Source: a bacterium (GTDB lineage Bacteria > Patescibacteriota > Minisyncoccia > Minisyncoccales > DG-74-1). Taken from it: a DNA stretch of 40,511 bases. The number at the start of each line of letters is the position of its first letter. The first letter of the stretch is position 1. Shown here in pieces: positions 4,778 to 36,972 of the stretch. The stretch is taken from contig DAIPKT010000001.1 of NCBI GenBank assembly GCA_036769645.1, positions 1-40,511 of the forward strand, given 5' to 3'. Under the pieces are notes generated by a model. That model was not told where the DNA came from. It saw nothing but the letters and a program-made list of their open reading frames with translations, and searched no databases. The translations under genes were made by a program, and so were the position numbers.

Positions 4778-5743
4778 TTATTGAGGATTTAGATTTGACC
4801 ATTTTCCACATCTGTCTCCCCATCTGGCAATGACCTTTCCTTCAATTCTAGCCTCAATCACCTCGCAATGATTTGGACAGCTCTGGCATTGAAAAGAGGT
4901 ACATCTGATATCTTTATCTGAAATTTCAAAACCTAAAAATTTTGTTTTTGGAGAAGGATTTTCCTTAGCCAATAAAGCCACCCCAAATGCTCCCATTACT
5001 TTATTATAGGAAGGAACAATAATTTTTTGGCCCAGAGCCTCCTCAAATGCCTTTCTCATTCCAATATTTTCTGAAACTCCACCCAAAAAAACAATTGGAG
5101 GTTTTATATTTTTTCCTCTGGCAACATTGTTTAAAAAATTCCTGACCAAGCCTTGACAGAGACCGGCAACAATATCATGGGTCGGATGACCAATCTGCTG
5201 TTTATGAATCATGTCTGACTCGCTGAAAACAGTACATCTGGCTCCTATTGTTGTTGGGTTCTTTGATTTTAAAGCCAACTCGCCAAATTTTTCAACTGGA
5301 ATTTTTAATCGAAAGGCCTGAGCATCTAAAAAGGCACCTGTTCCGGCAGAACAGATGAGATTTAATGCAAAATCAACCACCACTCCATTTTCTAAAATGA
5401 TAATTTTCGAATCCTGGCCACCAATTTCAATCACGGTTCGAACATCAGGAACAAAATGAGTCACTCCCTTAGCATGGGCAGTAATTTCATTTTTGATCAC
5501 ATCGGCCCCGGTAATCACTCCGGTTAAATATCTGGCTGAGCCAGTGGTACCTAGGCTAGCAATCTCAACTTCTGGATTATGAGCCTGAATAAAATTTTTC
5601 AATTCTCTCATTCCTTTTTTGACCGCCTCAATTGGATTTCCTTCGGTCCGAAAATAGGATGAAAACAAAATTTGATTTTTTTCATCAATTAAAACGAATT
5701 TTGTTGAAATGGAGCCAACATCAATGCCTAAATATGTCTTCAT
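4778..5743 (-). CDS. BadF/BadG/BcrA/BcrD-type ATPase (2-hydroxyacyl-CoA dehydratase activase-like) with C-terminal Cys-rich tail
   Basis: ASKHA-fold motifs 'LGIDVGSISTK', 'EIGGQDSK' and 'NLICSAGTGAF'. C-terminal 'CTSFQCQSCPNHC'. 4-nt overlap with the upstream gene. Confidence 0.85.
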   Translation of the reverse strand: MKTYLGIDVGSISTKFVLIDEKNQILFSSYFRTEGNPIEAVKKGMRELKNFIQAHNPEVEIASLGTTGSARYLTGVITGADVIKNEITAHAKGVTHFVPDVRTVIEIGGQDSKIIILENGVVVDFALNLICSAGTGAFLDAQAFRLKIPVEKFGELALKSKNPTTIGARCTVFSESDMIHKQQIGHPTHDIVAGLCQGLVRNFLNNVARGKNIKPPIVFLGGVSENIGMRKAFEEALGQKIIVPSYNKVMGAFGVALLAKENPSPKTKFLGFEISDKDIRCTSFQCQSCPNHCEVIEARIEGKVIARWGDRCGKWSNLNPQ

Positions 5744-13179: not shown

Positions 13180-14072
13180 CTCAAATTAAAAAAGCGGTTG
13201 TTCCAATAGCTGGTCTGGGGACAAGATTTTTGCCTTTAAGTAAGGTTTTACCAAAAGAACTTTTCCCTTTGGTTGATAAGCCAGTTTTACAATATATCAT
13301 TGAAGAAGCAGTAGCCTCTGGAATCAAAGAAATTATTTTTGTGATTAGACCGAAGAGAAAAGAGGTTTTAACTTACTTTAAGAAATATTTCAAAAAAACA
13401 CCAGAGTTAGAAGAAATTTTAAAAAAAAGAAAAAGGAATCACCTCTTAAAAGAGTTAAAAAAACTTGAAAAAATTTCGAAAAATATTTCCTTTTGGCATG
13501 TCTTCCAGAGAAAACCCTTGGGAGCCAGTCATGCTATTTTGCAAGCTGAAAAGTTAATTAAAAATGAACCCTGTGCAGTTTTATATGGTGATGATATCGT
13601 GGAATCTAAAGTTCCCTGTCTTTGGCAACTAATTGAAATTTTCAAGAAATATCAAAAACCAGTAATTGCTCTTTACCGAATTCCTAAAGAAAGTTTCCGA
13701 TTTTATGGAATGGTTGAAGTAAAGAAAATTGCCAAGCGTCTTTATAAAATCAAGAAGGTAGTGGAGAAGCCTTCAATTACTGAAGCTCCCTCCAGTTTGG
13801 CAGTGGTTGGAAAGCATATTATCACTCCTGAAGTTTTTGACCACTTAAAAAAAACCTCTTTTGATTTAAAGAAGGATCTAACTTTAAGTACAACTTTAAG
13901 CGAAATGGCAGAGGCTGGGAAAGAGGTTTATGGCTACGAATTTGAAGGAAAGTGGTTAGAGTGCGGAAATAAATTAGCCTATTTAAAATCAAATCTCTAT
14001 CTTTCTCTAAAACATCCTCAATTTGGCAAAGAACTTAGAAAAGAGATTAGGCGGACGTGGTGGAACTGGTAG
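13176..14072 (+). CDS. galU: UTP--glucose-1-phosphate uridylyltransferase
   Basis: 'AVVPIAGLGTRFLPLSKVLPKELFPLVDKPVLQYIIEE' and 'VEKP'. The last 7 codons and the TAG stop lie inside the tRNA-Leu gene. Confidence 0.88.
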   Translation: MTQIKKAVVPIAGLGTRFLPLSKVLPKELFPLVDKPVLQYIIEEAVASGIKEIIFVIRPKRKEVLTYFKKYFKKTPELEEILKKRKRNHLLKELKKLEKISKNISFWHVFQRKPLGASHAILQAEKLIKNEPCAVLYGDDIVESKVPCLWQLIEIFKKYQKPVIALYRIPKESFRFYGMVEVKKIAKRLYKIKKVVEKPSITEAPSSLAVVGKHIITPEVFDHLKKTSFDLKKDLTLSTTLSEMAEAGKEVYGYEFEGKWLECGNKLAYLKSNLYLSLKHPQFGKELRKEIRRTWWNW

Positions 14073-14134
14073 TCACGATAGCTTCAGGAGCTATTGGGAG
14101 AATTCCCGTGAGAGTTCGAATCTCTCCGTCCGCA
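14051..14134 (+). tRNA. tRNA-Leu (anticodon CAG), class II long variable arm, CCA not encoded
   Basis: Hand fold: acceptor GCGGACG/CGTCCGC; D arm GTGG..TCAC with GG in the loop; anticodon stem ATAGC/GCTAT; loop TTCAGGA; variable arm GGGA/TCCC; T arm GAGAG-TTCGAAT-CTCTC; discriminator A. Confidence 0.9.
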
Positions 14135-14136
14135 CA

Positions 14137-15816
14137 ATGAAAAAACAACAAATTCTTAAAATTATACCTCTCGGAGGATTAGGTGAGGTTGGTCGGAATA
14201 TGATGCTCCTTGAGTATAAAAGGATAATTTTAGTTATTGATATGGGTTTCCGTTTACCAGAAGAAGATATGCCAGGAATCGATTACATCATTCCCAATAT
14301 TGAATACTTAAAAGAGAAAGAAAAAAATATTTTAGGGATTCTCTTTACCCATGGTCACTATGACCACATTGGCGCTGTTCCCTATTTGATTGAACGAATC
14401 TGGCATCCCAATTTAAGAATTTTCGCTTCTCCTTTAACTCGGGGAATAATTTTAAAAAGGCAGGAAGATTTTCCTCAACAGCCAAAATTAGAAATAACTG
14501 AAGTGAAAGATGGCTCGAGAATAAAATTGGGTCCTTTTAGAATTGAATTTCTTAGATTAAATCATAATATTCCAGATAATTTAGGATTGTTTATTGAAAC
14601 CCCGGTTGGTAATATTTTCCATACCTCTGATTTCAAATTTGATCCCAGTCCAGTCAATGATTTACCAACCAATTTTCAGAAATTAAAAGAAATTGGGAAA
14701 AGAAAAATTTTGCTCATGATGTCAGACTCAACTGGAGCAGAACAAGAGGGTCATTCCCTTTCAGAAAAAACGATTGAGAAAAATTTGGCTGAGATCTTTA
14801 AAAAAGCAGAAGGCAGAATTATTGCCGCCACTTTTGCTTCACTCATTAATCGAATTCAGCAAATTATCACCCTTTCAGAAAAATATCAAAGAAAAGTAAG
14901 CCTGGAAGGTTATTCAATGAAAACCAATGTTGAAATTTCAAAGATTTTAGGATATCTCAAGGCAAAAAAAGGAACGATAATTGAGGGAAAAGAAATTCTA
15001 AACTATCCAGATAAAATTCAAACTATTCTCTGTACCGGAGCTCAGGGAGAAGCCGAGGCGGTTTTAATGAGAATTGCTAACCGGGAGCATCCTTATTTAA
15101 AAATAAAAAAGGGAGATACAGTAATTTTTTCCTCTTCGGTCATTCCTGGAAATGAAAGAACAGTCCAGATTATGAAAGATGAAATTTTAAGACAAGGGGC
15201 GAGGATTTTTCATTACAAAATGATGGATATCCATGCCGGTGGCCATGCCCAAAGAGAAGAACTAAGAAAGATGATAAAAATTATGAGGCCGAGATTTTTC
15301 TTTCCTATCCATGGCCAATATTCAATGTTGGTCAGCCATGCTGAGTTAGCTAAAGAAATGGGGCTTTCAGAAAAAAATGTCATTTTAGCTGAAAATGGCC
15401 AGATTATTAATCTAAATCCAAAGAAAATCTTTATTGAAAAAGAAAAAGTTCCTTCAAATTATATCATGGTTGATGGTTTAGGAATTGGCGATGTTGGAGA
15501 AATAGTTTTAAGGGACCGTCAGATGTTGGCCAAAGATGGAATGTTTGTCATTGTGGCAGTGGTTGATAGACAAACTGGCAAGGTCAGGGGCTCTCCTGAT
15601 ATAATCTCAAGAGGATTTGTCTATTTAAGAGAATCAAAGGAATTGCTTAGAGAAACAAGAAAAAGGGTAATTGGAATTGTTGATAAAGCAGCTGGTTCGG
15701 GAGGAGCAGTCAATTGGGTCTTTATCAAAGATGAAATCAGAAACAAAATCGGCCAATTCTTGTTTTCCAAAACTCAGAGACGTCCAATGATTTTGCCAGT
15801 TGTTATTGAGGTATAA
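14137..15816 (+). CDS. rnj: Ribonuclease J
   Basis: Metallo-beta-lactamase/beta-CASP motifs 'FTHGHYDHIGA', 'TSDFKFD', 'HAGGHA' and 'FFPIHGQY'. Start moved to ATG 14137 because the track's upstream extension (14023..) reads through the tRNA. Confidence 0.9.
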   Translation: MKKQQILKIIPLGGLGEVGRNMMLLEYKRIILVIDMGFRLPEEDMPGIDYIIPNIEYLKEKEKNILGILFTHGHYDHIGAVPYLIERIWHPNLRIFASPLTRGIILKRQEDFPQQPKLEITEVKDGSRIKLGPFRIEFLRLNHNIPDNLGLFIETPVGNIFHTSDFKFDPSPVNDLPTNFQKLKEIGKRKILLMMSDSTGAEQEGHSLSEKTIEKNLAEIFKKAEGRIIAATFASLINRIQQIITLSEKYQRKVSLEGYSMKTNVEISKILGYLKAKKGTIIEGKEILNYPDKIQTILCTGAQGEAEAVLMRIANREHPYLKIKKGDTVIFSSSVIPGNERTVQIMKDEILRQGARIFHYKMMDIHAGGHAQREELRKMIKIMRPRFFFPIHGQYSMLVSHAELAKEMGLSEKNVILAENGQIINLNPKKIFIEKEKVPSNYIMVDGLGIGDVGEIVLRDRQMLAKDGMFVIVAVVDRQTGKVRGSPDIISRGFVYLRESKELLRETRKRVIGIVDKAAGSGGAVNWVFIKDEIRNKIGQFLFSKTQRRPMILPVVIEV

Positions 15817-24542: not shown

Positions 24543-25238
24543 TTATCTTAACTGGCAAACATCAAAAAATGGGGAGATGGCTTTTTGAATTTCTAAAAGA
24601 TATTCTTGGGGATAGGGCTTTATTTTTTCAAATTTTGGGTCAAGGGTTTTTTCTGGTCGGAAATTCTGTAAATAATATTTTTTAGCTGGTGAAATCCAAC
24701 GAGCAATTTTTAAAATATCTTCTTTTCCTAAAATTGTGGGGACTAAGGTTGTTCTAAACTCATGCTCAATCTTGTTTTCCCGTAAAAGCTTGATACTTCT
24801 TTCAATATTTTTTAGATTTACTCTTTTTTTGCAGATTTTATTATATTTTTCCTTTGGAGCTTTAACATCCATAGCTATGTAATCAACTAATTTTTTATCA
24901 ATCAAATCCTTCAACATTTTTGGATTAGAACCATTAGTATCAAGCTTTACTAAAAAGCCCTCTTTTTTTATTTTTTTAATGAAATCTGGTAAATCCTTAT
25001 TAATTGTTGGTTCGCCTCCTGACAAAACAATGCCCTCTAATAAATTTTTTCTTTCTTTTAAAAAAGAAAAGAAATCTTCTTCTGAGATTTTAGGCTGATT
25101 TTTAGTTTTTTCAGGCAAGACCAACTCTGAATTGTAACAAAACCGACAATGAAAATTACAGCCACAAAGAAAAACTATGGCCGCCAAGTGGCCCGGATAA
25201 TCAATTAAAGTTAATTTTTGGAGCCCACCTATTTTCAT
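24543..25238 (-). CDS. nrdG: Anaerobic ribonucleoside-triphosphate reductase activating protein (radical SAM)
   Basis: 'CGCNFHCRFCYN' (CxxxCxxC), 'LSGGEPT', and NrdG size. Confidence 0.9.
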   Translation of the reverse strand: MKIGGLQKLTLIDYPGHLAAIVFLCGCNFHCRFCYNSELVLPEKTKNQPKISEEDFFSFLKERKNLLEGIVLSGGEPTINKDLPDFIKKIKKEGFLVKLDTNGSNPKMLKDLIDKKLVDYIAMDVKAPKEKYNKICKKRVNLKNIERSIKLLRENKIEHEFRTTLVPTILGKEDILKIARWISPAKKYYLQNFRPEKTLDPKFEKIKPYPQEYLLEIQKAISPFFDVCQLR

Positions 25239-25905
25239 AATAATTTTCCATCAACCATTTTTAAAATTTTTTGGGCAATTCGGGCAATTTTTTCATCATG
25301 GGTGACAAGCAAGATGGCAACCTTTTCTTCTAAATTTATTTTTTTAAAAGCTCAGAAATTTCCATCTTTGATTTTAAATCCAAATTTCCGGTTGGCTCAT
25401 CAGCTAATAAAATCTTTGACTGATTGGCCAAACTTCTGGCAATTGCCACCCTTTGACATTCCCCGGCTGATAATTGTCTTGAATAATGAAATAATCTTTG
25501 TGATAAACCAAAAAAAGCTAATAATTCTCTTGTTCTCTTTTCTCGAAAATTTTTTGGAAAGCCAGCCAGAACCATTGGAAAGATGACATTTTCTAAGGAA
25601 TTTAAATTTGGCAATAAATTATAAGTCTGGAAAATAAAGCCAATTTTTCTTAACCTCAGTAAATTTAAATCCCTTTCCCTGAACTTTGAAGTATCTTTTT
25701 CTTCAAAGAAAATTTTTCCCTTTGTTGGCAAATCAATTAAGCCAATAAGATTTAGCAAAGTTGTCTTTCCTGAACCAGAAGGTCCCATAATGGCTAAGAA
25801 TTCTTTTTCATCTATTTTTAAATTCAAATTATCAACTGCCTTGATTTCTTGATCCCCCATTTTGAAAATCCTTAATAAATTTTCGGTTCTAACTACCTCA
25901 TTCAT
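25235..25905 (-). CDS. MacB/LolD-type ABC transporter ATP-binding protein, reading frame broken at an A7 run
   Basis: Walker A 'GPSGSGKTT', signature 'LSAGECQR', Walker B 'LLADEPT'. The 0 frame stops at 25336 (..ELLKK*). The -1 frame continues 'INLEEKVAILLVTHDEKIARIAQKILKMVDGKLL*' and ends in an ATGA overlap with nrdG. Confidence 0.8.
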
Positions 25906-27043
25906 ATTTTAAAGATTGGGCAATGTTTCCCTTGGAAATCTTCCAGGCAGGGAAAAGACCACCTAAAATTCCATTTAAAATTAAAATTGAAAAACCGGTG
26001 ATTATTAGCCTAGAACTGACAATTGGCTGAATAAAGGCCATTCCAAAAAACTGGCTTGTGATTAAAGTTATTCCCTTTGATAAAAAATAACCACCAATTA
26101 CCCCAAAAAGACCAGCTAAAAAACCTATCAAAATTGATTCGTTTAGAATTAATAAAAAAACAAAATTTTTAGAAGCGCCAATTGCTTTCATTGTGGCAAT
26201 TTCCTTTACCCTTTCACTGGTAGCCATAATCATTGTGGAAAGAACAAATAAAATTCCTATTAATAAAGAAATTGAGGCAACAGTAATATGGACCGCCCTG
26301 GCTATCCCAATATAATCCATTATCTGAGCTAAACTTTCTTCTAAGCTCAGATCTTTTAAATCAGGTGAAAGATTTTCTATTTTCTTAGCGGTTTCTTTTG
26401 TTCTATCTGGGTTTTCTAAGGTAATAGCTGCTAAACTAATCTGATTTTCTTTTTCAAAGATTTCCTGGAGAGTTTTCAAAGGTAAATAGACAATCATATC
26501 TTCAAAAAGGACTCCTCCAGTTTCCAAAATTCCAATTATTTCTAATTTCCTCCCTTTTAGATTAAATTTTTCTCCTAAATTAAGATTTTGGGTTTTGGCA
26601 ATTGTTGAAGAAAAGATGATTACTTCTTTATCTTCAGGTTCAATCATTCTTCCTTTTTCCAATTTTAAATAAGGTCTTAAATCTTTCAGAAAATTACTTT
26701 CAATTCCAATTAAAGCCAAAAATGGGATTGGTAAACCCTCAAGAAAAATGTTTTGAGTTAAAACCGAATAGACGCCTTTAACATTCTCAATCTCTCTAAT
26801 TTCTGAAATTAAATCTAAGGAAAAAGTCTGATGAGCTTCCAAGAAAGGAGTCGGATGAAGGGCAATTTCTTTTGCTACAACCTGAATTTGTTCACCCTGT
26901 GTTAAAATTACTTCATTGACTTGGATAATAAATCCTTCGCTTACTGATAAAAGAGAAACAGTAAAGGTAATGGCAATTGTTACTGCCAAAATTATTGTTA
27001 AAAGAGCTCTAACTTTCCTCCTAACTAAATTTGTAAGAGCCAA
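25898..27043 (-). CDS. FtsX/MacB-type ABC transporter permease
   Basis: N-terminal TM helix, a periplasmic domain, and three C-terminal TM helices with 'MKAIGASKNFVF' (FtsX-like). Overlaps the ATPase gene by 8 nt. Confidence 0.85.
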   Translation of the reverse strand: MALTNLVRRKVRALLTIILAVTIAITFTVSLLSVSEGFIIQVNEVILTQGEQIQVVAKEIALHPTPFLEAHQTFSLDLISEIREIENVKGVYSVLTQNIFLEGLPIPFLALIGIESNFLKDLRPYLKLEKGRMIEPEDKEVIIFSSTIAKTQNLNLGEKFNLKGRKLEIIGILETGGVLFEDMIVYLPLKTLQEIFEKENQISLAAITLENPDRTKETAKKIENLSPDLKDLSLEESLAQIMDYIGIARAVHITVASISLLIGILFVLSTMIMATSERVKEIATMKAIGASKNFVFLLILNESILIGFLAGLFGVIGGYFLSKGITLITSQFFGMAFIQPIVSSRLIITGFSILILNGILGGLFPAWKISKGNIAQSLKYE

Positions 27044-27066: not shown

Positions 27067-30000
27067 TTAAAGAGTTTTTGGAATTTTAAATTCTTTTCTC
27101 TGCCTAAATTCTTGTTGTTTCCCAAGATTCCATTGAGAAATTGGCCTGAGATAGCCAACTATTCGAGAATAAACTTCGCAAGGCTGTCTGATTGGACATC
27201 TCGGACATTCAAAATGTTCTCCTTCTAAATAGCCATGGCTAGGACAAATACTATTGCCTGAGAAATTCGGTTTATTATTTCGTCTTACATAAATAACATG
27301 ATTAGGAACCTCTACACAATAAACATAACCAGAGTACTTCACTTTATGTTGAATCTCTTTTAAATAAGTGTACTTATGAGTTCTTTTTGTTACTATTCCT
27401 TTATTATCTAAAATTGAAGCATCAAAACCAATCTTAAGATAAATTTCCTGAAGATCGTCTCTTAAGCGTTTAGAAAAAGAAGAGCAATAATTAGTTCCTT
27501 TAATTCCATCTCCTTTAAGATACCATTCTAAGAATAATCGGAGCATTTTAGGAGGTAACATTTTTAATTCTTGGGGAATGTATTTAGTTCTAGAGTTGCC
27601 AAATTGGGTTAAATAATGCCAAAGTTGCTTATTGTGAATATGGAAGCCCTGGGATGATTCTGAAAATTTAAAGGGTAATTCTTTTAACATTTCTCTAATT
27701 TCATCTCTTGTTTTACCATGCTTTTTCTGGGTAATCACTATTTCGGGTTTATAAGCTGCATCTCCTCCTTTAGATCCTCTGACCGACCCTTCGGCTATCC
27801 AAATTCCAAAAAACTTCAACCAGTTACTCATCGGAATTTTTATTGCTGAATAATTTTCCACTATGCCTCTCTTTCTATTTTTAACCATGGAAACAAAAGA
27901 TGGCGAGCAATTAACTAATGCCGCAATCTCTGCTTGGGTTTTATTTTCATATTCGTTTAATAACTTTTTGATTTCTGTAGTTAGTATTGTTTTATTATTT
28001 ATTACACTTGGCAAAATAAAAAATTCTTGCATTTTGCCTTTCCATTTATAACCTGTCATTGGAACTTTATCTATGCTACTAATATCTTTTGCCTTTACAA
28101 AATAATATATTTTTGTGCTTTTTATAAATTTCCCTGTTTTAGGATCTCTCATTATGACTTTTTTGCCCGAGACAAACATTCTATGGTCAGGTGTTACCAT
28201 ACAATCAAATGCTTTACTTTTAAAATGAATCATTATCCCTTGATAAGGAAATTTAAATCTGCGCAACGGTTCTTGATAACTTAATTCTTTTGTCTCTGGA
28301 TTTGCCGTTAATACCTTCTCTCCTTCTTTAAGTTCACTAAACCTTTTCCATCCGTTTTCGGTTAAAATTTCTGTCTTCTCGTCGTAACAAAAAGTCGGAG
28401 TAAGGGTGATATAAGGCAATTTGAAATTCTCAAAAATTTTTTTAATTAAATTTTTCACTGTTTGAATATCAGAAATTCTTTCCCCTAAGAAGAGATGCAA
28501 AACAGTATTGTGGATAAATACCAAACAATTTTTTCCTGCCAAATAATTGTGATTCTTTTTGGTCATCAAATCATAAAATTGATTATCTTTGACATCAATC
28601 TTTGAGACATTTTTTACTCTTACTACTGGGAGATGTCGTTTTTTTCGATTGGATATTTTTTCTTTAATTAATTTAGGATTAACTGTAACTTCAAGCTTAT
28701 CTTTTATCATGGTTAATTGATAGGCAGGAATTCTTAATCTCCAAATGTTAACTTCATTTTTTCTTTTTGTTTTCTTTAAAGACTTACTAATCATTATTCC
28801 TGCTTTGACACATATTTCTAAAATATCTTCTGCTAATTTAGGAGAGACACTCTGGTATTCAAAGTCGCCATCTCTTTTAGAGATAGTTCCATCACTATCC
28901 ATCAAACCTGATAGGAAGGCAAATATATTATTTTTATTTAAATTTTCTTTTACTTTTTGAGGAATGCAAACATCGTAAACTTTCTCCCCGGGTTTGAAAC
29001 CATATTTGAAAAAGAATTCCGAAACTTCTCTTTTAGAAGTAGTTAATTCTCTTTCAGGCTCACTTCTTTTATCATTTTTAATCACTTTGGCTTTTACTCC
29101 GAAGTATTTTGATACGATCTCCTTTGCTTTTTCTAAGGCTTCTAGATGTTCGCCACTAAAGCGAACTTTATATTTCTTCAAATTGTTTCCGCCTCTATTA
29201 TCAATGAATTCTGAAATACAACCATCTCCAATAAAAAATCCAATAAGCCACATTAAATCACTATTCAATTCTGGTGATATCTCTGGATATAAATTATGAA
29301 AATTCTGTAAAATATAATCACCCACTTTAAGTTCGTCGGCTCTTTTCTCTATAACTCTATATTTCGGAAGAAGCTTATATCTTTTTCGACATTCAGGGTG
29401 ATATCTTAGGTGAGCAGGAAAAGCTTTTATAGCCCCTAATTTCTCTTCACAGACTGGACAGGTAGGATTTGGTTTAATTTTTTCTAAGACGAAAAATGGA
29501 TGCCAATCAGAAGTTGTTATATCTAAATTTCTTTCTCCTTTTATTCGAATTTTATTATATTTTTTTACATCAATAGAAACTGCCTTTATAATCTCATCCC
29601 ATTCGCTAATTCCTTTTTCTTTGTTATAGCTTAGAGCTTTAATCGGTTTCAATTTCTCAAAATTCTCTACAATAAATTCTATTGGGAATAAACCTTTATC
29701 AGTTAGAACTTTATTACCTCTCTCGATACATCCCCCTGTGTATTTTGTTTGCAATTCATCCTGGAGTTTTAAGGCCTCAAAAATATCATCGGTATAGTTT
29801 ACTGGAAGTTGGGAGCTATTAGTATAAAAGGGAACTTTTTTTGTTCCGGCTGTGATAATATTTGGATATTTTTCTTTATCTTTTAGGCAAAGCCTATAAG
29901 CACAGCTCTCAGCCGGTGTCGCCTCTAAATTATAGAGGTTTCCAGTTTCTTTCTGATATTTTACCAATCTTTCTCGCATAAAATCTAAAACCTCTAAAGC

Positions 30001-33000
30001 AAATCTCCTTCCTCTTTTTGAAGCAATATTTTCTCCAATAAAGTTCAAAAGGGCTTCATTCATTCCAACCAAGCCAATGGTTGAGAAATGATTTCCATAA
30101 TAACTGCCTCTCATTTTTTTTACTCCTTCTAAATAAACTTTGGAATAAGGATATAAACCTTTTTCAATCAGATTTTCCAAGACTTTTCTTTTGATTTCCA
30201 AAACCTCCTTTGCCAAATCCATCACCTTTCCTAATCTCTCAAAAAATTCTTTTTTGGTTTTTGAAAGATAACCAATTCGAGGTAGATTGACGGTGATAAC
30301 GCTGATTGAACCAGTGTTAGCCCCCGAACCGAACAATCCTCCCCCACCCCGATTGTAGAGTTCACGCAGATCGAGCTTAAGCCGGCAGCAATTAAAAGTG
30401 ATTTGGCCTAAAGAGTGGACAAAAAGATGGTTTTTTTCTAATTCTAGATCGTAAAATTCCCTTATCTGATTATAATTTCGAATTCTTGTCTCTTTCGCTC
30501 TCACTAAATAAATATCACTATTTTTAATTTTTAAACTTTCATTAGTATGAGCATTATATTTCTCTAAAGTATTGAATCCCACCATTCTTGATTTTCTAAG
30601 ACCAGGAACTTTAGTAGTGGAAACTGCCATCCAGCCTGGGATCCTTTCGGCCAAAATTGGGTTATTCATCCATCTGCTATTCCTTTTTAGTTTTGATTTC
30701 GAATGTTGTAAATAAATTACTTGACTTCTCTTTTTCAATCGGTAAGTTACTGGTTGACCAATCAAAGAGAGGAGTAAAACTAAATCTCGAGATAATTCTA
30801 AATCATTGAGGTGAATTTCTCTTCTTTTCTCATATCCATCTCCTTTGAAATAGAGAGCAAGAAAATTTTTAATAACATTTGCTGGACTATCGAATAAAAT
30901 TTGAGGTAACCTTCCACATTTTTTAAATCCGGCATTATATAATTTTCTAGCTAAGTTTGAATTATAAACATAAAGGTAGTAAGTATTATATCGAGGGTCT
31001 TGCTTTTCTTTACTCTTCAAGCCAAAAGTTTTTTTAATTAATGATTTAATTGTATTTAAGTTTTCAAAATCTCCAGTTTTAAAAGAAAATTGTATTCCTC
31101 TTGGCTCACCATAATGAGTGTAACCTTTTCTATTTTCAAAAAGATAATTTCCATCGGCTACAAAATAACCCAAAATTTTTGCTAAATTTTCTTCTAAGAT
31201 AAGATCTTCAATTTTCTGATATTCTTTGGATAAAATATTATCATTTACTCTTTTGAGTACTAAAAGATAATCTCCTTTTTGAATATCTTTGGCAAATTTC
31301 ATTTTGATTCCCTCTGGAGTATAAACTGGTACCGGATGTTTTAAAGAGAATATTGCTTCTTTCCCATCCTCAGTAGTAATTTCTACTCCTTTGCTATCTA
31401 GGATCTTTAAAAATCTTTTTACCGGCGACCATTCTAGTTTTAAAGTCTCTGGATTCAATGATAAAACTTCTAACTTTCCTGTTTTTCTACAGTCTGCCCA
31501 ACCTTCTTTATCAAATTCTTTTACTTTATAATTTTCAGCTATTTCTTTAATTGGGGCTCTTTTTATCCTCTTTGAATTTCTGATTAAAATCTCTTCATTT
31601 CCGTCGAGACACATTGCCCTCGCTTCCTCCGGTTTCATATCTGAGTTAATGTAATTGGCGAAATAATTTATGCCATATTTTGCTGAGGTTTCAAAGATTC
31701 CATCAAAAGCTGGCTCATCCCAGGGAAAATCTCTGGTAATATTTATAGTTGGGATGGGAAAGGAAAAACTTCTCCCAAATTTATCACCCTCTAACATCGC
31801 CTCATAAAAAGCTCTATTAAAGATTTTCATTTCTTCTTCAAATTCTCCATAGGTTTCTTTTTGGGGCTTTCCACCAATAATTATTGGAAGTTTGGCAAAT
31901 ACCGGCGAAGGTCTAAGATCCAGGGTCAAATTCGAAAAAGGACAATTTCCAGTTATAAAAACTTTTCCTTTTCTCCGGGCAATTATTGTTCCGTTCTCGG
32001 TCTGAGGACACCAAATTATCCCTTCGTAATTTATCCTCTTTATTTTTGTAATATAGGTTTCTGGATGACGAATTATTCTTAGAATATAAATATCCTTTTT
32101 ACCCACAGTTCCTGGAATTGGCTTTTGTCTGCGAACAGTAAAACCATAACCAGCATTAACAATAATCCTCTCTAAGTCATCAAGTAGTCCTAAATCTGAA
32201 GTGGCAATTTTACAATTTTCTTTACCATCTCCTCTTAAATAAGTCTCTAAAAACAACTTTGATTGTCTTGCGCTTAAATTTAGTAAATATTCAGGGATAA
32301 AGTGAACATTTTCTCTTGTCCTAAACCACTGGTGAATTTTCCTAGAGCTTTCTGCATTTAACCTTATCTGTTGGACTTCATCTCCTAAAGATGTTGCTGG
32401 GTGATTAGTGTACTCTAATTTATAACCTTTCAATAAATTAATTATTTCGTCATAATATTTCCTATTTTTAATTTTCGATTGATAAATACTTACTCGGTGG
32501 CAACATCTATACTTCCCTGGTCTCTCCACACTTCCCTCACTTATTATCCAAGCCATTAATTTTATTTGCTCGTCACTGATTTTCGCATCGGGATTTTGAT
32601 TTTTGCCAGCAATAGGAACAATAATTGGAGATTTCAATTTCAGAACATCTTCTATTGGTTCTAAAACATATCTTTGAGTATTAAATTTTTTCCTTAAAAC
32701 TCGGTGTTGAGGAGAAACCAGTTGATCTTGAATTCTATTCATTAATCGATACATTTTCCCTTTATATTTTCTCCTAAAAATAAATTTTACTTTCTTATTT
32801 TCTATTTCTTTAGTTTGGAGATTTAAAGTTTTAATCTCGTCGCCTTCTTTTATTTCATCGTGCTTTTTCCATCCTTCGGGAGTTAATATTTCAGTATCTT
32901 CTGATATACACTGAAACCCTACCCTAGTCGGCGTAGCCATGTTAAACAAAAATTCCTGAAGAGCCTGTTTTACTTGAGGATAGCTTAATCTATCATAACG

Positions 33001-33735
33001 AATAAAGGGAGCTAAAAGAGTATCAAAGTTTGAAAAACTGACTGCGCCTGCTACTTCACCAGCAAGGGTGAAGATAAAATTTACTGCCTGACCCAAAGCT
33101 GATTCAAGATGCTTTGGCGGTTTTGAAGATAATTTTCCGGCCACTCCACCAAAACCTCTCAATAAGAGATCATAGAGATCCCAGCCAGAACAATAGACAC
33201 CCAAAGTATCCAGTTTATCTAAATGCAAATCTCCAGATTGATGAGCTTCTCTAATTTCTTTAGGATAGATTTTGTTTAACCAGTATTTCCTAACCACATG
33301 GGAGGTGACATAATGATTTAATCCTTGTAAAGAAAAAGCCATATTGGCATTTTCTTTAACCTCCCAATCTAATTGCTCTAAATATTGATCTACTCTTTCT
33401 ACTGCCTCTTCGGTCGCCCGGACTGCCTCCCTGATTCTCCTTCTTTGTTCTCTATATAAAATATAGGCCTTGGCAGTTTCAACCAGGCCTTCCAAAATTA
33501 AAACTTCCTCAATAATGTCTTGAATCTGCTCAACATGGGGAATTTTTTCTTTTTTAAAGCGAAGATTTAAAATTTGAACTACTCTCTTAGAAAGTTTTTT
33601 TGCTCGATTGCCATCTCCCTGACCGGTAGCAGTTAAGGCTTTAAAAATGGCCTCAGAAATTCGGGTCGGGTCAAATTCAACAATTTGACCGTCTCGCTTT
33701 TTTACTTTGGTGATTTCATTTTGAACCATTATCAT
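27067..33735 (-). CDS. nrdD: Class III anaerobic ribonucleoside-triphosphate reductase carrying four inteins
   Basis: ATP-cone 'KVKKRDGQIVEFDPTRISEAI'. Finger-loop 'CCRLKLD'. 'YTGG|TVLH'. Zn site 'CPSHGY..CPRC'. Glycyl-radical motif 'SRIVGYLRP'. The exteins sum to ~706 aa by my count. Confidence 0.95.
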   Translation of the reverse strand: MIMVQNEITKVKKRDGQIVEFDPTRISEAIFKALTATGQGDGNRAKKLSKRVVQILNLRFKKEKIPHVEQIQDIIEEVLILEGLVETAKAYILYREQRRRIREAVRATEEAVERVDQYLEQLDWEVKENANMAFSLQGLNHYVTSHVVRKYWLNKIYPKEIREAHQSGDLHLDKLDTLGVYCSGWDLYDLLLRGFGGVAGKLSSKPPKHLESALGQAVNFIFTLAGEVAGAVSFSNFDTLLAPFIRYDRLSYPQVKQALQEFLFNMATPTRVGFQCISEDTEILTPEGWKKHDEIKEGDEIKTLNLQTKEIENKKVKFIFRRKYKGKMYRLMNRIQDQLVSPQHRVLRKKFNTQRYVLEPIEDVLKLKSPIIVPIAGKNQNPDAKISDEQIKLMAWIISEGSVERPGKYRCCHRVSIYQSKIKNRKYYDEIINLLKGYKLEYTNHPATSLGDEVQQIRLNAESSRKIHQWFRTRENVHFIPEYLLNLSARQSKLFLETYLRGDGKENCKIATSDLGLLDDLERIIVNAGYGFTVRRQKPIPGTVGKKDIYILRIIRHPETYITKIKRINYEGIIWCPQTENGTIIARRKGKVFITGNCPFSNLTLDLRPSPVFAKLPIIIGGKPQKETYGEFEEEMKIFNRAFYEAMLEGDKFGRSFSFPIPTINITRDFPWDEPAFDGIFETSAKYGINYFANYINSDMKPEEARAMCLDGNEEILIRNSKRIKRAPIKEIAENYKVKEFDKEGWADCRKTGKLEVLSLNPETLKLEWSPVKRFLKILDSKGVEITTEDGKEAIFSLKHPVPVYTPEGIKMKFAKDIQKGDYLLVLKRVNDNILSKEYQKIEDLILEENLAKILGYFVADGNYLFENRKGYTHYGEPRGIQFSFKTGDFENLNTIKSLIKKTFGLKSKEKQDPRYNTYYLYVYNSNLARKLYNAGFKKCGRLPQILFDSPANVIKNFLALYFKGDGYEKRREIHLNDLELSRDLVLLLSLIGQPVTYRLKKRSQVIYLQHSKSKLKRNSRWMNNPILAERIPGWMAVSTTKVPGLRKSRMVGFNTLEKYNAHTNESLKIKNSDIYLVRAKETRIRNYNQIREFYDLELEKNHLFVHSLGQITFNCCRLKLDLRELYNRGGGGLFGSGANTGSISVITVNLPRIGYLSKTKKEFFERLGKVMDLAKEVLEIKRKVLENLIEKGLYPYSKVYLEGVKKMRGSYYGNHFSTIGLVGMNEALLNFIGENIASKRGRRFALEVLDFMRERLVKYQKETGNLYNLEATPAESCAYRLCLKDKEKYPNIITAGTKKVPFYTNSSQLPVNYTDDIFEALKLQDELQTKYTGGCIERGNKVLTDKGLFPIEFIVENFEKLKPIKALSYNKEKGISEWDEIIKAVSIDVKKYNKIRIKGERNLDITTSDWHPFFVLEKIKPNPTCPVCEEKLGAIKAFPAHLRYHPECRKRYKLLPKYRVIEKRADELKVGDYILQNFHNLYPEISPELNSDLMWLIGFFIGDGCISEFIDNRGGNNLKKYKVRFSGEHLEALEKAKEIVSKYFGVKAKVIKNDKRSEPERELTTSKREVSEFFFKYGFKPGEKVYDVCIPQKVKENLNKNNIFAFLSGLMDSDGTISKRDGDFEYQSVSPKLAEDILEICVKAGIMISKSLKKTKRKNEVNIWRLRIPAYQLTMIKDKLEVTVNPKLIKEKISNRKKRHLPVVRVKNVSKIDVKDNQFYDLMTKKNHNYLAGKNCLVFIHNTVLHLFLGERISDIQTVKNLIKKIFENFKLPYITLTPTFCYDEKTEILTENGWKRFSELKEGEKVLTANPETKELSYQEPLRRFKFPYQGIMIHFKSKAFDCMVTPDHRMFVSGKKVIMRDPKTGKFIKSTKIYYFVKAKDISSIDKVPMTGYKWKGKMQEFFILPSVINNKTILTTEIKKLLNEYENKTQAEIAALVNCSPSFVSMVKNRKRGIVENYSAIKIPMSNWLKFFGIWIAEGSVRGSKGGDAAYKPEIVITQKKHGKTRDEIREMLKELPFKFSESSQGFHIHNKQLWHYLTQFGNSRTKYIPQELKMLPPKMLRLFLEWYLKGDGIKGTNYCSSFSKRLRDDLQEIYLKIGFDASILDNKGIVTKRTHKYTYLKEIQHKVKYSGYVYCVEVPNHVIYVRRNNKPNFSGNSICPSHGYLEGEHFECPRCPIRQPCEVYSRIVGYLRPISQWNLGKQQEFRQRKEFKIPKTL
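27253..28389 (-). mobile_element. NrdD intein 4 (379 aa, LAGLIDADG, with HTH-like insert)
   Basis: aa 1783-2161. N-terminus 'CYDEKTEILTENGW', block B 'TPDH', LAGLIDADG motifs 'FGIWIAEGS' and 'LEWYLKGDG'. Ends 'NFSGN' followed by +1 Ser. The flanks rejoin as LTPTF-SICPSHGY. Confidence 0.88.
28507..29730 (-). mobile_element. NrdD intein 3 (408 aa, LAGLIDADG, with embedded C2H2 zinc-finger motif)
   Basis: aa 1336-1743. N-terminus 'CIERGNKVLT', block B 'TSDWH', LAGLIDADG motifs 'LIGFFIGDGC' and 'LSGLMDSDG', block F 'FYDLMTKKNHNY'. Canonical end 'VFIHN' followed by +1 Thr. The flanks rejoin as YTGG-TVLHLF. Confidence 0.9.
30391..31611 (-). mobile_element. NrdD intein 2 (407 aa, LAGLIDADG), inserted at the catalytic Cys finger loop
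   Basis: aa 709-1115. N-terminus 'CLDGNEEILI', LAGLIDADG motifs 'ILGYFVADGN' and 'LALYFKGDG', block F 'FYDLELEKNHLF'. Ends 'QITFN' followed by +1 Cys. The flanks rejoin as ARAM-CCRLKLD. Confidence 0.88.
31945..32910 (-). mobile_element. NrdD intein 1 (322 aa, LAGLIDADG)
   Basis: aa 276-597. N-terminus 'CISEDTEILTPEGW', block B 'SPQH', LAGLIDADG motifs 'LMAWIISEGS' and 'LETYLRGDG'. Ends 'VFITGN' followed by +1 Cys. The flanks rejoin as RVGFQ-CPFSNLT. Confidence 0.88.
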
Positions 33736-35999: not shown

Positions 36000-36406
36000 T
36001 ATTTAAAAATTAAACTTAAATAATAATTTTCTTTTTCTGCCATTTTTTGGCCTGCCTTTTCCGATTTCTCATGGTCATATCCCAAAAGATGGAAAATCCC
36101 ATGGATTAAAACTCGGATTAATTCCTTTTCAAAAGTCTCTCCAAATCTTTTGGCATTTTTCTTAATCTCCCTTAGACAAATTACTATTTCTCCTAACCCT
36201 AAGTTTTTATTGGGAAAAGCTAAGACATCAGTGACTCGATTTTTTCCCCGATATTTTTTATTCAATTTCCTCATCCTTCCTTGACCAACCAAGGCAATTG
36301 ATAAATCAGCCTCTTTTTTATTCTCGCTCTCCAGAACCTTTTCAGCAACTTTTTTTAAAAATTCTTCATCAATCTGAACCGTAGTTAAATTATTAATCTC
36401 AATCAT
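35999..36406 (-). CDS. ybeY: rRNA maturation endoribonuclease YbeY
   Basis: 'HGIFHLLGYDH' zinc motif. 135 aa. Confidence 0.9.
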   Translation of the reverse strand: MIEINNLTTVQIDEEFLKKVAEKVLESENKKEADLSIALVGQGRMRKLNKKYRGKNRVTDVLAFPNKNLGLGEIVICLREIKKNAKRFGETFEKELIRVLIHGIFHLLGYDHEKSEKAGQKMAEKENYYLSLIFK

Positions 36407-36972
36407 GAACTCTTTAATATTTCATTTAAAATTTTAATTGTTGACTGCTGAACTGCCCAATTTTTAATATAATTTAGGTCTAATTTGTTTTTCTGGATAT
36501 CTAAAACAGTTTTGATATCTTCTAAATGTCTTGATGATTTACTTTCTTTATACCAAATGAGTTTACTTAAAACTAAATCTTCAGGTGAAACAAAGAATAT
36601 TTTTTGTTTATCAATTTTTTTAGCTATCTTTCTTTCCAATTTTAATTTACCATAAATATCAACTCTGCCACCCTTTACCCAAAAATCTACTTTTAAACCA
36701 GTTTGAGGATGAATGAAATTAAATTCTCCTTTTTTTTCTAAGGCTTCTATCATTGCCTCTTGGCTTACATAAACATCTTTGTCTAGAGATAAAAGCTTCT
36801 TTGAAAGAAGGGGTAATTTTTGTGGAGATAGTTCCACAATTATATCAATATCGGCAGTATAACGAGGCTTTCCCCAGGCAGCTACTGCCATTCCACCAGT
36901 AACAGCGTAAGGAATCTTAAGCACCTCGAGAATTTTAGCTATTTTAGATAGGAGCGTTTCAGGAGTAATCAT
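36403..36972 (-). CDS. Minimal Pol-beta-superfamily nucleotidyltransferase-fold protein
   Basis: 'TGGMAVAAWGKPRYTADIDIIV' fits the GG-x13-DxD NTase signature. A helical C-terminal domain follows. Confidence 0.55.
   Translation of the reverse strand: MITPETLLSKIAKILEVLKIPYAVTGGMAVAAWGKPRYTADIDIIVELSPQKLPLLSKKLLSLDKDVYVSQEAMIEALEKKGEFNFIHPQTGLKVDFWVKGGRVDIYGKLKLERKIAKKIDKQKIFFVSPEDLVLSKLIWYKESKSSRHLEDIKTVLDIQKNKLDLNYIKNWAVQQSTIKILNEILKSS

What the first reader, a model, noticed from the sequence alone, without database searches (positions are those of the whole stretch)
27067..33735. Single nrdD gene carrying four full-length LAGLIDADG inteins (about two thirds of the ORF is intein)
Removing four Cys1...Asn blocks (aa 276-597, 709-1115, 1336-1743, 1783-2161) leaves a contiguous ~706-aa class III RNR. 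All expected motifs are then intact: ATP-cone, CCRL finger loop, YTGGT, Zn ribbon, and the RIVGY glycyl radical site. Each insertion lies in a conserved catalytic or structural motif. Each keeps both LAGLIDADG acidic residues, so the endonucleases may still be active. Three of the four lack the canonical penultimate His (they end ..TGN, ..TFN, ..SGN). Four inteins in one host protein is at the upper end of what I know to be described. The enzyme is presumably essential here, since no other RNR is visible in this window, so all four must splice.
Basis: partly seen in the sequence, partly recalled or inferred. Interest (0 to 1): 0.7.

Follow-up and report, generated by a model that had tools for sequence, protein, structure and literature searches.

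The report
Anaerobic RNR gene with four inteins
One gene for the oxygen-sensitive enzyme that makes DNA building blocks, in a tiny uncultured (CPR/Patescibacteria) bacterium, is interrupted by four self-splicing protein parasites (inteins); this is real and near the published record, but public databases already hold many similar genes, some with five.

Summary
The ORF at 27067..33735 lies on the minus strand and encodes 2222 aa.

- **Host protein.** Removing the blocks leaves a 706-aa NrdD that matches Pfam NRDD 1-562/562 and NCBIfam NF006126 end to end. An NrdG2 activase gene lies 1.8 kb downstream.
- **Inteins.** Each block has Cys1, a block-B His, a terminal Asn, a +1 Cys/Thr/Ser, and two LAGLIDADG motifs 93-111 aa apart with the acidic residues intact.
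- **Independence.** Each intein occurs alone at the same site in a close relative. All four, including their endonuclease cores, show dN/dS of about 0.1.
- **Penultimate residue.** The non-His penultimate residues (G, F, G) are traits of their allele families.

Four inteins ties the highest count I found reported for a bacterial protein; five is reported for a eukaryotic Prp8. Databases go further. Among 126 related NrdDs of at least 900 aa, eight carry four inteins, including the isolate Desulfonema magnum, and two carry five, spread over about 12 sites.

Verdict: a new member of a known kind, of moderate interest. Splicing and endonuclease activity are inferred, not shown.

The parts
27067..33735 (-). 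nrdD precursor ORF, 2222 aa (258 kDa). It consists of five extein segments and four inteins.
   Evidence: ORF listing and translation. The exact protein is in the public collection, with a second record that differs by 1 aa.
32911..33735 (-). Extein 1 (aa 1-275): ATP-cone plus the N-terminal part of the NrdD barrel. Ends ...TRVGFQ.
   Evidence: Pfam ATP-cone at aa 10-99; DP alignment to P0003; coordinates.
31945..32910 (-). Intein 1 (aa 276-597, 322 aa). Cys1; SPQH block B; LAGLIDADG motifs LMAWIISEGS and FLETYLRGDG; F:4 Cys; ends TGN, +1 Cys. Inserted at GFQ|CPFSN.
   Evidence: TIGR01445 scores 28.4 bits, above the 24.5 cutoff. The A1 family profile hits PI-PkoII and I-DmoI. In 60 alleles C1, H and N are invariant, E 59/60, D 59/60 and penultimate G 60/60. 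The same intein occurs alone in P0121. dN/dS is 0.09.
31612..31944 (-). Extein 2 (aa 598-708). Runs CPFSNLT... to ...EEARAM.
30391..31611 (-). Intein 2 (aa 709-1115, 407 aa). Cys1; SLKH block B; motifs ILGYFVADGN and FLALYFKGDG; F:4 Asp; ends TFN, +1 Cys. Inserted directly before the CCRL finger-loop motif.
   Evidence: Pfam Intein_splicing 49.1 bits (GA 35.8) and LAGLIDADG_3 28.6 bits (GA 22.5); TIGR01445 27.6 bits. In 58 alleles C1, H and N are invariant, the acidic residues are D in 56 and 54, and the penultimate residue is F 31 / H 26 / W 1. It occurs alone in P0074. dN/dS is 0.09-0.12.
29731..30390 (-). Extein 3 (aa 1116-1335). Runs CCRLKLD... to ...TKYTGG and contains the finger-loop Cys pair.
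   Evidence: In the alignment to T. maritima NrdD (4coi), CCRL aligns with CCRL; coordinates.
28507..29730 (-). Intein 3 (aa 1336-1743, 408 aa). Cys1; SDWH block B; motifs LIGFFIGDGC and LSGLMDSDGT; FYDL block F; canonical IHN end, +1 Thr. Carries a CPVC...HPEC insertion at 29389..29460.
   Evidence: Pfam Intein_splicing 52.8 bits and LAGLIDADG_3 58.7 bits; TIGR01445 25.7 bits. All 43 alleles are canonical. It occurs alone in P0008. dN/dS is 0.10.
28390..28506 (-). Extein 4 (aa 1744-1782). Only 39 aa separate inteins 3 and 4: TVLHLF...LTPTF.
   Evidence: The same I3-E4-I4 arrangement is present in metagenome contig L020.
27253..28389 (-). Intein 4 (aa 1783-2161, 379 aa). Cys1; TPDH block B; HTH-like insert at 27865..27942; motifs FFGIWIAEGS and FLEWYLKGDG; F:4 Cys; ends SGN, +1 Ser. 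Inserted just before the C-terminal Zn-site Cys.
   Evidence: On its own it is weak against HMMs: Intein_splicing 25.1 bits (GA 35.8) and TIGR01445 15.3 bits, both below cutoff; LAGLIDADG_3 23.8 bits (GA 22.5) passes. Hint_2 scores 34.9 bits (GA 28.4) in the full-length scan. The AF2 model has pLDDT 88.6 and pTM 0.81. The best Foldseek PDB hits are PI-PkoII (5.5e-14), VMA inteins, PI-SceI and I-DmoI. Alleles occur at the same site in P0126 (73% identical), L005 (82%, where it is the only intein), L020, L021 and L025.
27067..27252 (-). Extein 5 (aa 2162-2222 plus stop). Contains SICPSH...CPRC (Zn site) and SRIVGYLRP (glycyl-radical motif).
   Evidence: Aligned to the C-termini of T. maritima and T4-type NrdD; coordinates.
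24543..25238 (-). nrdG, the radical-SAM activase for NrdD. It is on the same strand, 1.8 kb downstream, separated from nrdD by two ABC-transporter genes.
   Evidence: NCBIfam TIGR02495 NrdG2 scores 239.4 bits, above the 131 cutoff. Pfam hits are Radical_SAM and Fer4_12.

Best explanation
This is a genuine single-copy class III (anaerobic, glycyl-radical) ribonucleotide reductase gene, nrdD, from a Parcubacteria/Nealsonbacteria-like CPR bacterium. Four independent class 1 inteins have colonised it, each carrying a two-motif LAGLIDADG homing endonuclease.

The 258-kDa precursor is expected to mature by four autocatalytic splicing reactions. Each reaction follows the standard steps: an N-S acyl shift at Cys1, trans-esterification to the +1 Cys/Thr/Ser, cyclisation of the terminal Asn, and an acyl shift back to a peptide bond. 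The products would be an 81-kDa NrdD and four free inteins of 38-48 kDa. NrdG then activates NrdD.

As DNA endonucleases, the free inteins would cut intein-less nrdD alleles at their own insertion sites and be copied in by repair (homing). This explains why each intein sits in a highly conserved motif, and why presence or absence at each site is mosaic among relatives.

Shown here: the anatomy, the boundaries, homology and fold, conservation of the catalytic residues, purifying selection, and independent occurrence of each intein. Inferred: actual splicing, endonuclease activity, and essentiality.
For: - Boundaries were reproduced independently.
- The exteins are 79-88% identical over 99-100% of their length to about 705-aa intein-free NrdDs named Nealsonbacteria/Parcubacteria/Patescibacteria. 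They match NRDD and NF006126 end to end.
- HMM, profile and fold evidence supports HINT plus LAGLIDADG domains.
- The LAGLIDADG motifs are spaced 93-111 aa apart.
- Splicing and endonuclease catalytic residues are almost invariant across 43-60 alleles per site, and all are present here.
- dN/dS is 0.09-0.12 for the inteins and 0.08-0.16 for the endonuclease cores, against 0.06-0.07 for the exteins.
- Each intein occurs as the only intein in a relative: P0121, P0074, P0008 and L005. Neighbouring pairs occur in other assemblies: P0127 has I1+I2, P0125 has I2+I3, and L020 has I3+I4.
- A second database record (P0002, JGI, a 9.9-kb contig) carries the same four inteins and differs by 1 aa.
- nrdG2 is nearby, and no other RNR is present in the window.
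- The synteny ftsA-ftsZ-nrdD is shared with relatives L001 and L003.
Against: - No biochemical evidence exists for splicing or cleavage.
- Three inteins lack the penultimate His, which normally assists Asn cyclisation. This trait is fixed in their allele families, and splicing without that His has precedent (Chen, Benner & Perler 2000, cited in PMC4031507).
- Intein 1 has no Pfam LAGLIDADG hit, and intein 4 is below the intein HMM cutoffs when scanned alone. Their assignment rests on the family profile and the AF2 model.
- dS is near saturation (1-2.4), so the dN/dS values are approximate.
- The window is a metagenome-assembled contig, and I could not retrieve the P0002 contig to compare DNA.
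- Essentiality is judged from 40 kb only.
Confidence: 0.88

Rival explanations
1. The inteins still splice, but some or all of the endonuclease domains no longer home. They would be kept for another reason, such as structural support for splicing or DNA binding, or they are only recently inactivated.
For: - The homing-cycle model predicts degeneration once an intein is fixed. A few alleles in relatives have lost an acidic residue: N, Q, Y, A or K at the LAGLIDADG positions. Mini-versions of 144-194 aa exist at sites 225, 273 and 384.
- The inteins' divergence from their alleles is similar to the exteins' divergence: 69-83% against 77-88% aa identity. That fits long vertical co-inheritance as well as it fits recent homing.
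Against: - All eight catalytic acidic residues are intact here.
- The endonuclease cores have dN/dS of 0.08-0.16, as constrained as the splicing domains.
- Intein presence or absence among close relatives is mosaic, which implies ongoing gain and loss.
Confidence: 0.3
2. The four-intein arrangement is a metagenome assembly chimera. Strains that each carry one or two inteins were collapsed into one contig.
For: - The window is a MAG-type contig.
- Close relatives carrying one to three of these inteins coexist in public metagenomes, and the exteins are conserved enough to bridge assemblies.
Against: - A second record from another source (P0002, JGI) has the same 2222-aa protein with one substitution.
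- Every neighbouring pair of inteins is also seen in other assemblies.
- The nearest alleles of each intein are only 73-84% identical, so no sampled donor strain could have supplied them.
- The reading frame is intact across all eight junctions.
Confidence: 0.04
3. The gene is a decaying pseudogene, or yields a dead enzyme, because at least one intein cannot splice. The three without a penultimate His are the candidates.
For: Three non-canonical C-termini (TGN, TFN, SGN) and non-Asp F:4 residues (Cys) in inteins 1 and 4.
Against: - A 6.7-kb ORF is open in a 33.6% GC genome, with P about 1e-77 by chance.
- Extein dN/dS is 0.06-0.07.
- The Gly-Asn ending is fixed in 60/60 alleles across many phyla, and Phe-Asn occurs in 31/58 alleles. 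Both therefore function in other hosts' NrdD.
- Cys is the second commonest F:4 residue in known inteins (PMC4031507).
- The activase gene is intact.
Confidence: 0.04
4. The inteins act as conditional (redox or oxygen-sensitive) switches. Cys1/Cys+1 pairs in inteins 1 and 2, and F:4 Cys in inteins 1 and 4, would form disulfides that block splicing until the cell is reduced. The oxygen-labile NrdD would then mature only under anoxia.
For: - Cys1 with +1 Cys in I1 and I2, and extra Cys at F:4 in I1 and I4.
- Conditional splicing through disulfide traps is described for other inteins (my own knowledge; related reviews are PMC5874633 and PMC4031507).
Against: - Nothing in the sequence requires it.
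- In alleles the +1 residue at site 273 is often Thr or Ser, and F:4 is Ser in 26/60. The cysteines are therefore not conserved as a switch would predict.
- CPR bacteria of this kind are obligate anaerobes/fermenters, which is general knowledge and was not tested here.
Confidence: 0.1

Closest known systems
Trichodesmium erythraeum ribonucleotide reductase gene with four inteins (Liu, Yang & Meng 2003, J Biol Chem 278:46826; cited in PMC10710043 and PMC2874743)
   Same: A bacterial RNR catalytic-subunit gene carrying four inteins in one ORF. This was the previously described maximum per protein.
   Different: The host is a cyanobacterium and the gene also contains three group II introns, as the paper's title states. 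It is a different RNR from the glycyl-radical NrdD here. Here all four inteins are full-length with endonuclease domains, and the host is a CPR bacterium.
Multi-intein NrdD genes already in public databases: Desulfonema magnum strain 4be13 NrdD (P0154, 2206 aa, four inteins); 'Thaumarchaeota archaeon SJ3.Bin56' NrdD (L007/P0212, 2826 aa, five inteins); P0124 (2631 aa, five)
   Same: The same host protein, the same kind of LAGLIDADG inteins, and shared insertion sites. Alleles of inteins 1, 2 and 3 are present.
   Different: Different combinations of sites. None of the four- or five-intein genes that I found uses site 642. The combination 273+383+603+642 was seen only in P0001 and P0002. As far as my literature searches show, these database entries are unannotated and not discussed in papers.
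Anaeramoeba ignava Prp8 (five inteins) and archaeal MCM proteins (four inteins), PMC10710043; haloarchaeal MCM sites, PMC10643990
   Same: One essential protein with several inteins at distinct conserved sites, some of them close together.
   Different: The hosts are eukaryotic or archaeal and the host proteins are unrelated.
Structurally characterised intein homing endonucleases: PI-PkoII (2cw7), TliVMA/PhoVMA inteins (7qss-7qsu), PI-SceI (1vde), PI-PfuI (1dq3); free-standing I-DmoI
   Same: A two-domain architecture of a HINT splicing domain plus a monomeric two-motif LAGLIDADG endonuclease. These are the best profile and Foldseek matches for the intein 1/4 family.
   Different: Only 9-15% sequence identity. 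The penultimate residue is Gly rather than His. F:4 is Cys. Intein 4 has an extra HTH-like insert between the HINT and endonuclease domains.

Membership tests
Class III ribonucleotide reductase catalytic subunit (NrdD) | Full-length, contiguous match to NrdD family models once the insertions are removed | tested here: met
   Pfam NRDD 1-562/562, 628.5 bits. NCBIfam NF006126 3-683/684, 1024.5 bits (cutoff 548). TIGR02487 540 bits.
Class III ribonucleotide reductase catalytic subunit (NrdD) | C-terminal glycyl-radical motif (RVxGY), a finger-loop Cys, and a C-terminal Zn-binding Cys cluster | tested here: met
   SRIVGYLRP, AMCCRL and SICPSH..CPRC are present. They align with the corresponding T. 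maritima NrdD (4coi) segments. Metal binding itself was not tested.
Class III ribonucleotide reductase catalytic subunit (NrdD) | A cognate radical-SAM activase (NrdG) encoded in the genome | tested here: met
   TIGR02495 NrdG2, 239.4 bits (cutoff 131), at 24543..25238 on the same strand.
Class 1 intein | An in-frame insertion absent from orthologues, located in a conserved host motif | tested here: met
   The DP alignment to P0003 gives four clean insertions. More than 100 intein-free orthologues exist at 79-88% identity. The flanks are conserved down to T. maritima NrdD.
Class 1 intein | N-terminal Cys/Ser nucleophile, block B (T/S)xxH, C-terminal Asn, and +1 Cys/Ser/Thr | tested here: met
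   All four have Cys1. Block B is SPQH, SLKH, SDWH and TPDH. All end in Asn, with +1 C, C, T and S. These residues are invariant in 43-60 alleles per site.
Class 1 intein | Penultimate His (G:6). This is typical but not obligatory. | tested here: not met
   Only intein 3 has it (IHN). Inteins 1, 2 and 4 have Gly, Phe and Gly. This is a family trait. Splicing without this His has published precedent (reference 74 in PMC4031507).
Class 1 intein | HINT-fold splicing domain recognised by curated models or by structure | tested here: met
   - I2 and I3 pass Pfam Intein_splicing.
- I1, I2 and I3 pass TIGR01445.
- I4 passes Hint_2 in the full-length scan, and its AF2 model matches intein structures.
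- I1 is covered by the A1 family profile.
Class 1 intein | Autocatalytic protein splicing | not testable with these tools
   This needs expression and an MS or Western assay.
LAGLIDADG homing endonuclease (monomeric, two-motif) | Two LAGLIDADG motifs about 100 aa apart, each ending in a catalytic Asp/Glu | tested here: met
   Spacings are 102, 104, 111 and 93 aa. The acidic residues are E/D, D/D, D/D and E/D, and they are conserved in alleles.
LAGLIDADG homing endonuclease (monomeric, two-motif) | Homology or fold match to known LAGLIDADG enzymes | tested here: met
   Pfam LAGLIDADG_3 is above GA for I2, I3 and I4. The I1/I4 family profile matches I-DmoI over 160 positions at 2.5e-7 and the PI-PkoII endonuclease domain at 1.7e-14. 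Foldseek matches I-DmoI with TMt about 0.6. I1 alone has no Pfam LAGLIDADG hit.
LAGLIDADG homing endonuclease (monomeric, two-motif) | Site-specific cleavage of the intein-less allele | not testable with these tools
   Only indirect support is available: purifying selection on the endonuclease cores and mosaic presence or absence among relatives.

The most novel reading that the evidence does not exclude
The four inteins are not merely parasites. They would act as a layered post-translational gate on an oxygen-labile, single-copy RNR. Cys1/Cys+1 pairs (inteins 1 and 2) and F:4 cysteines (inteins 1 and 4) would trap the precursor under oxidising conditions, so dNTP synthesis, and hence replication, starts only when all four splice.

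A second reading is not excluded either. One intein lineage (Cys1...Gly-Asn, inteins 1 and 4) may have re-targeted itself repeatedly within nrdD to sites 178, 225, 273, 410, 573 and 642. That would make NrdD a natural record of homing-endonuclease specificity switching.
Probability: 0.1. Interest if true: 0.65.

Novelty: new member of a known kind. Interest (0 to 1): 0.35.

Why it matters
On its own, this is a well-formed example of a known phenomenon: multiple homing-endonuclease inteins in a ribonucleotide reductase. It ties the highest count I found reported for a bacterial protein.

It matters mainly as a pointer to a wider pattern. NrdD of anaerobic bacteria and archaea appears to be an exceptionally dense intein host. 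In the small sample examined here it has about 12 insertion sites and up to five inteins per gene. I found no paper that analyses this.

Streamlined CPR bacteria carry these elements too. This 40-kb window holds five inteins in total. CPR bacteria are already known for homing-endonuclease-rich rRNA genes.

The allele series collected here would be useful material for intein engineering and for studying how homing endonucleases change target:
- an ending that is always Gly-Asn;
- a position that toggles between Phe and His within one allele family;
- related inteins sitting at different sites of the same gene.

Tried and rejected
- **BLAST HSP chaining.** Counting insertions this way undercounted. 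It merged inteins 3 and 4 because the 39-aa extein between them gives no HSP. I replaced it with a constant-cost jump alignment.
- **Single-sequence PDB searches.** Searches with inteins 1 and 4 gave only marginal hits (E 0.19 and 3e-4). A family alignment (A1) plus profile search and an AF2/Foldseek model resolved the assignment.
- **P0002 contig.** I tried to fetch the JGI contig to compare DNA with the window, but it is not on record. The metagenome scan did not return it either. It did return other contigs with the I3-E4-I4 arrangement.
- **Window genome.** It is not among the GTDB representative genomes scanned, so the organism is named only through its closest NrdD relatives.
- **Literature searches.** 'inteins' + 'Patescibacteria' returned 0 papers. 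'intein' + 'candidate phyla radiation' returned 5, none about CPR inteins. The NrdD + inteins search returned only phage or database papers.
- **Recent duplication.** I considered whether the four inteins are recent copies of one another and rejected it. I1 and I4 are about 30% identical (same family). I2 and I3 are related to the others only at E of about 1e-3 to 1e-2.
- **Rfam and tRNA scans.** Neither found anything in the gene region.
Full report
**1. The observation**

The window (40,511 bp, 33.6% GC) has an uninterrupted ORF at 27067..33735. It runs ATG to TAA and encodes 2222 aa. At this base composition a stop codon is expected about every 13 codons. The chance of 2222 open codons is about 1e-77, and the next longest ORF in the window is 700 aa.

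The exact protein is already in the public protein collection from an NCBI contig of 40,511 bp. A second record (P0002, JGI/IMG, a 9.9-kb contig) differs by one residue, Q166E.

**2. Boundaries and the host protein**

It is 79-88% identical over 99-100% of its length to more than 100 intein-free proteins of about 705 aa. Where these are named, they are ribonucleoside-triphosphate reductases of Candidatus Nealsonbacteria, the Parcubacteria group, or Patescibacteria.

I wrote a jump-alignment DP with a constant cost for long insertions and aligned the precursor to the closest intein-free orthologue, P0003.

The joined exteins match family models end to end:
- Pfam NRDD 1-562/562 in one stretch, 628.5 bits, against 533.9 bits in five pieces for the precursor.
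- Pfam ATP-cone.
- NCBIfam NF006126 positions 3-683/684, 1024.5 bits against a cutoff of 548.

The alignment to T. maritima NrdD (4coi) runs through all four junctions:
- ptrvgfq|cpfsn aligns with QPIRT-TQ|SPYTN.
- am|ccrl aligns with AS|CCRL.
- kytgg|tvlh aligns with KVSGG|AILH.
- tptf|sic aligns with NTKI|SVC.

So each intein sits in a motif that is conserved between homologues that score only E 1.3e-33 against each other.

An NrdG2-type activase (TIGR02495, 239 bits) lies at 24543..25238 on the same strand. The gene order ybeY-ftsA-ftsZ-nrdD is shared with related contigs. None of the other 30 ORFs of at least 100 aa that I scanned has an RNR domain.

**3. Are the four blocks inteins?**

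All four begin with Cys. Each has a block-B (S/T)xxH: SPQH, SLKH, SDWH and TPDH. All end in Asn and are followed by Cys, Cys, Thr and Ser.

| Intein | TIGR01445 intein_Nterm | Pfam Intein_splicing | Pfam LAGLIDADG_3 |
|---|---|---|---|
| I1 | passes (28.4 bits) | below GA (28.2 bits) | no hit |
| I2 | passes (27.6 bits) | passes (49.1 bits) | passes (28.6 bits) |
| I3 | passes (25.7 bits) | passes (52.8 bits) | passes (58.7 bits) |
| I4 | below cutoff (15.3 bits) | below GA (25.1 bits) | passes (23.8 bits) |

Intein 4 does pass Hint_2 in the full-length scan.

To settle inteins 1 and 4, I aligned them with 18 relatives taken from other NrdDs (alignment A1). In that alignment C1, the block-B His, the motif-1 Glu and the terminal Gly-Asn are invariant. 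The motif-2 Asp is present in 19 of 20.

The A1 profile hits the following PDB entries:
- PI-PkoII, 1.7e-14.
- VMA inteins, about 1e-13.
- The AceL NrdHF intein.
- I-DmoI across nearly its whole length, 2.5e-7.

An AlphaFold2 model of intein 4 built on A1 is confident (pLDDT 88.6, pTM 0.81). Its best PDB fold matches are all intein homing endonucleases: PI-PkoII at 5.5e-14, the Tli/Pho VMA inteins, PI-SceI and PI-PfuI. I-DmoI matches the endonuclease core.

Each intein has two LAGLIDADG motifs 93-111 aa apart. The catalytic acidic residue is present in all eight.

**4. Are they functional?**

Allele series from related NrdDs show near-invariance of the splicing and endonuclease residues:
- Site 273, n=60: C1, H and N 60/60; E 59; D 59.
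- Site 383, n=58: C1, H and N 58/58; D 56 and 54.
- Site 603, n=43: all canonical.

I made codon-level comparisons with the closest alleles for which DNA could be fetched (L001-L004).

| Region | dN/dS |
|---|---|
| Whole inteins | 0.09-0.12 |
| Endonuclease cores | 0.08-0.16 |
| Exteins | 0.06-0.07 |

These values are. dS is close to saturation, so they are approximate. The direction, strong constraint, is clear.

The inteins are more AT-rich than the exteins: 30-32% against 37% GC, and GC3 of 21-26% against 31%.

The missing penultimate His is a lineage trait rather than decay. Gly is fixed in 60/60 site-273 alleles and in the related site-410, 225 and 642 inteins. Within the single site-383 allele family the position toggles between Phe (31), His (26) and Trp (1).

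Splicing without this His has published precedent, and Cys is the second most common F:4 residue (PMC4031507).

**5. Independence of the four insertions and the chimera question**

Each intein occurs as the sole intein at the same site in a close relative:
- P0121 carries I1.
- P0074 carries I2.
- P0008 carries I3.
- The Patescibacteria MAG contig L005 carries an I4 allele, 82% identical.

Neighbouring pairs also occur elsewhere: P0127 has I1+I2, P0125 has I2+I3, P0126 has I2+I4, and L020 has I3+E4+I4.

The nearest alleles are only 73-84% identical. Together with the second database record, this makes an assembly chimera unlikely.

The four inteins are not recent copies of one another. I1 and I4 belong to one family at about 30% identity. 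I2 and I3 are only distantly related to them.

**6. How unusual is it?**

In the literature, four inteins per protein was the stated maximum (the Trichodesmium RNR of Liu et al. 2003, and archaeal MCMs) until five were reported in Anaeramoeba Prp8 (PMC10710043; PMC2874743). RNR is the second most intein-rich bacterial protein (PMC4760082). My searches found no paper on inteins in CPR/Patescibacteria and none on multi-intein NrdD.

The databases tell a different story. I examined 126 NrdD relatives of at least 900 aa returned by two searches. The number of intein-sized insertions per protein was:

| Inteins per protein | Proteins |
|---|---|
| 1 | 6 |
| 2 | 81 |
| 3 | 29 |
| 4 | 8 |
| 5 | 2 |

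The insertions fall at about 12 sites. The four-intein set includes the cultured Desulfonema magnum (P0154, 2206 aa). The five-intein genes are P0124 (2631 aa) and P0212, which is L007, a MAG labelled Thaumarchaeota archaeon (2826 aa). Each has five insertions bounded by C/S...N|C/S/T.

Site 642 (intein 4) is the least used of the window's four sites: 3 of 297 insertions in that set. Several metagenome contigs also carry it. The combination 273+383+603+642 was seen only in P0001 and P0002.

**7. Verdict**

The gene is a real four-intein nrdD of a CPR bacterium. It most likely matures by four standard class 1 splicing reactions and releases four probably active LAGLIDADG homing endonucleases.

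It is a new member of a known kind. It ties the published bacterial record, but unannotated database entries already exceed it. Splicing, cleavage and essentiality remain inferences.

Noticed in passing
window 5911..6942 (-), inside ORF 5740..7842: There is a fifth intein in the window (344 aa). It has Cys1, TPEH block B, LAGLIDADG motifs LGYWLAEGS and GFFRGDGN, and ends ..IARN|C, so the penultimate residue is Arg. The host is a DUF2229/HGD-D (2-hydroxyacyl-CoA dehydratase-like) protein, and the intein is inserted in LLPFG|CMPE. The gene lies next to a BcrAD/BadFG-type ATPase gene (4778..5743). Removing the intein raises the HGD-D score from 20.4 bits (below GA) to 31.6 bits (above GA), with the match spanning the junction.
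   Followed up: partly
window 27865..27942 (-), within intein 4: Intein 4 has an insert that looks like a helix-turn-helix (KTQAEIAALVNCSPSFVSMVKNRKRG). It lies between the HINT domain and the LAGLIDADG core. It gives a weak Sigma70_r4_2 hit and is modelled as three helices. Some site-410 alleles have a similar insert, and several relatives carry a precomputed HTH_38 (PF13936) hit.
   Followed up: partly
window 29389..29460 (-), within intein 3: Intein 3 has a CPVC...(16 aa)...HPEC segment in its N-terminal half that looks like a zinc knuckle. It gives a weak DUF7501 hit and is also present in the P0008 allele.
   Followed up: no
related proteins, alignment A1; NrdD sites 178, 225, 273, 410, 573, 642 (P0003 numbering): One intein lineage begins C-x-[SD]-[ED]-x-T-x-[IV]-L-T and ends Gly-Asn. 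It occupies at least six different sites of NrdD in different organisms. Inteins 1 and 4 of the window both belong to it. Intein 4's nearest non-allelic relatives are site-410 inteins at about 40% identity. This suggests repeated re-targeting within one gene. Relatives of this lineage also occur in non-NrdD hosts (L011, L013, L015, L017, L019).
   Followed up: partly
related proteins P0113, P0230, P0232 and others (NrdD site 178...LGPY|TFFG...VHN|C): 19 of 23 insertions at site 178 begin with Thr (TFFG or TYFG) rather than Cys or Ser. That is an unusual N-terminal residue for an intein. The window's gene does not carry this intein.
   Followed up: no
L007 (JAAOZP010000017.1, MAG labelled Thaumarchaeota archaeon SJ3.Bin56) and P0124: These NrdD genes are 2826 and 2631 aa long and each carries five bona fide intein insertions. 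That equals the published per-protein record, Anaeramoeba Prp8.
   Followed up: partly
window 25336..27043 (-): A MacB/FtsX-type permease gene and an ABC ATPase gene sit between nrdD and nrdG. In relatives L002 and L004, nrdG directly follows nrdD.
   Followed up: no
window 14023..15816 (+) and tRNA at 14051..14135: The mechanically listed TTG-start ORF for RNase J overlaps a tRNA-Leu(CAG) gene. The true start of the RNase J gene is therefore probably downstream of the tRNA.
   Followed up: no
window 36403..36972 (-): An AbiEii-like nucleotidyltransferase (type IV toxin family) ORF lies between ybeY and the YqeY-like gene. Its Pfam score is only just above the cutoff.
   Followed up: no
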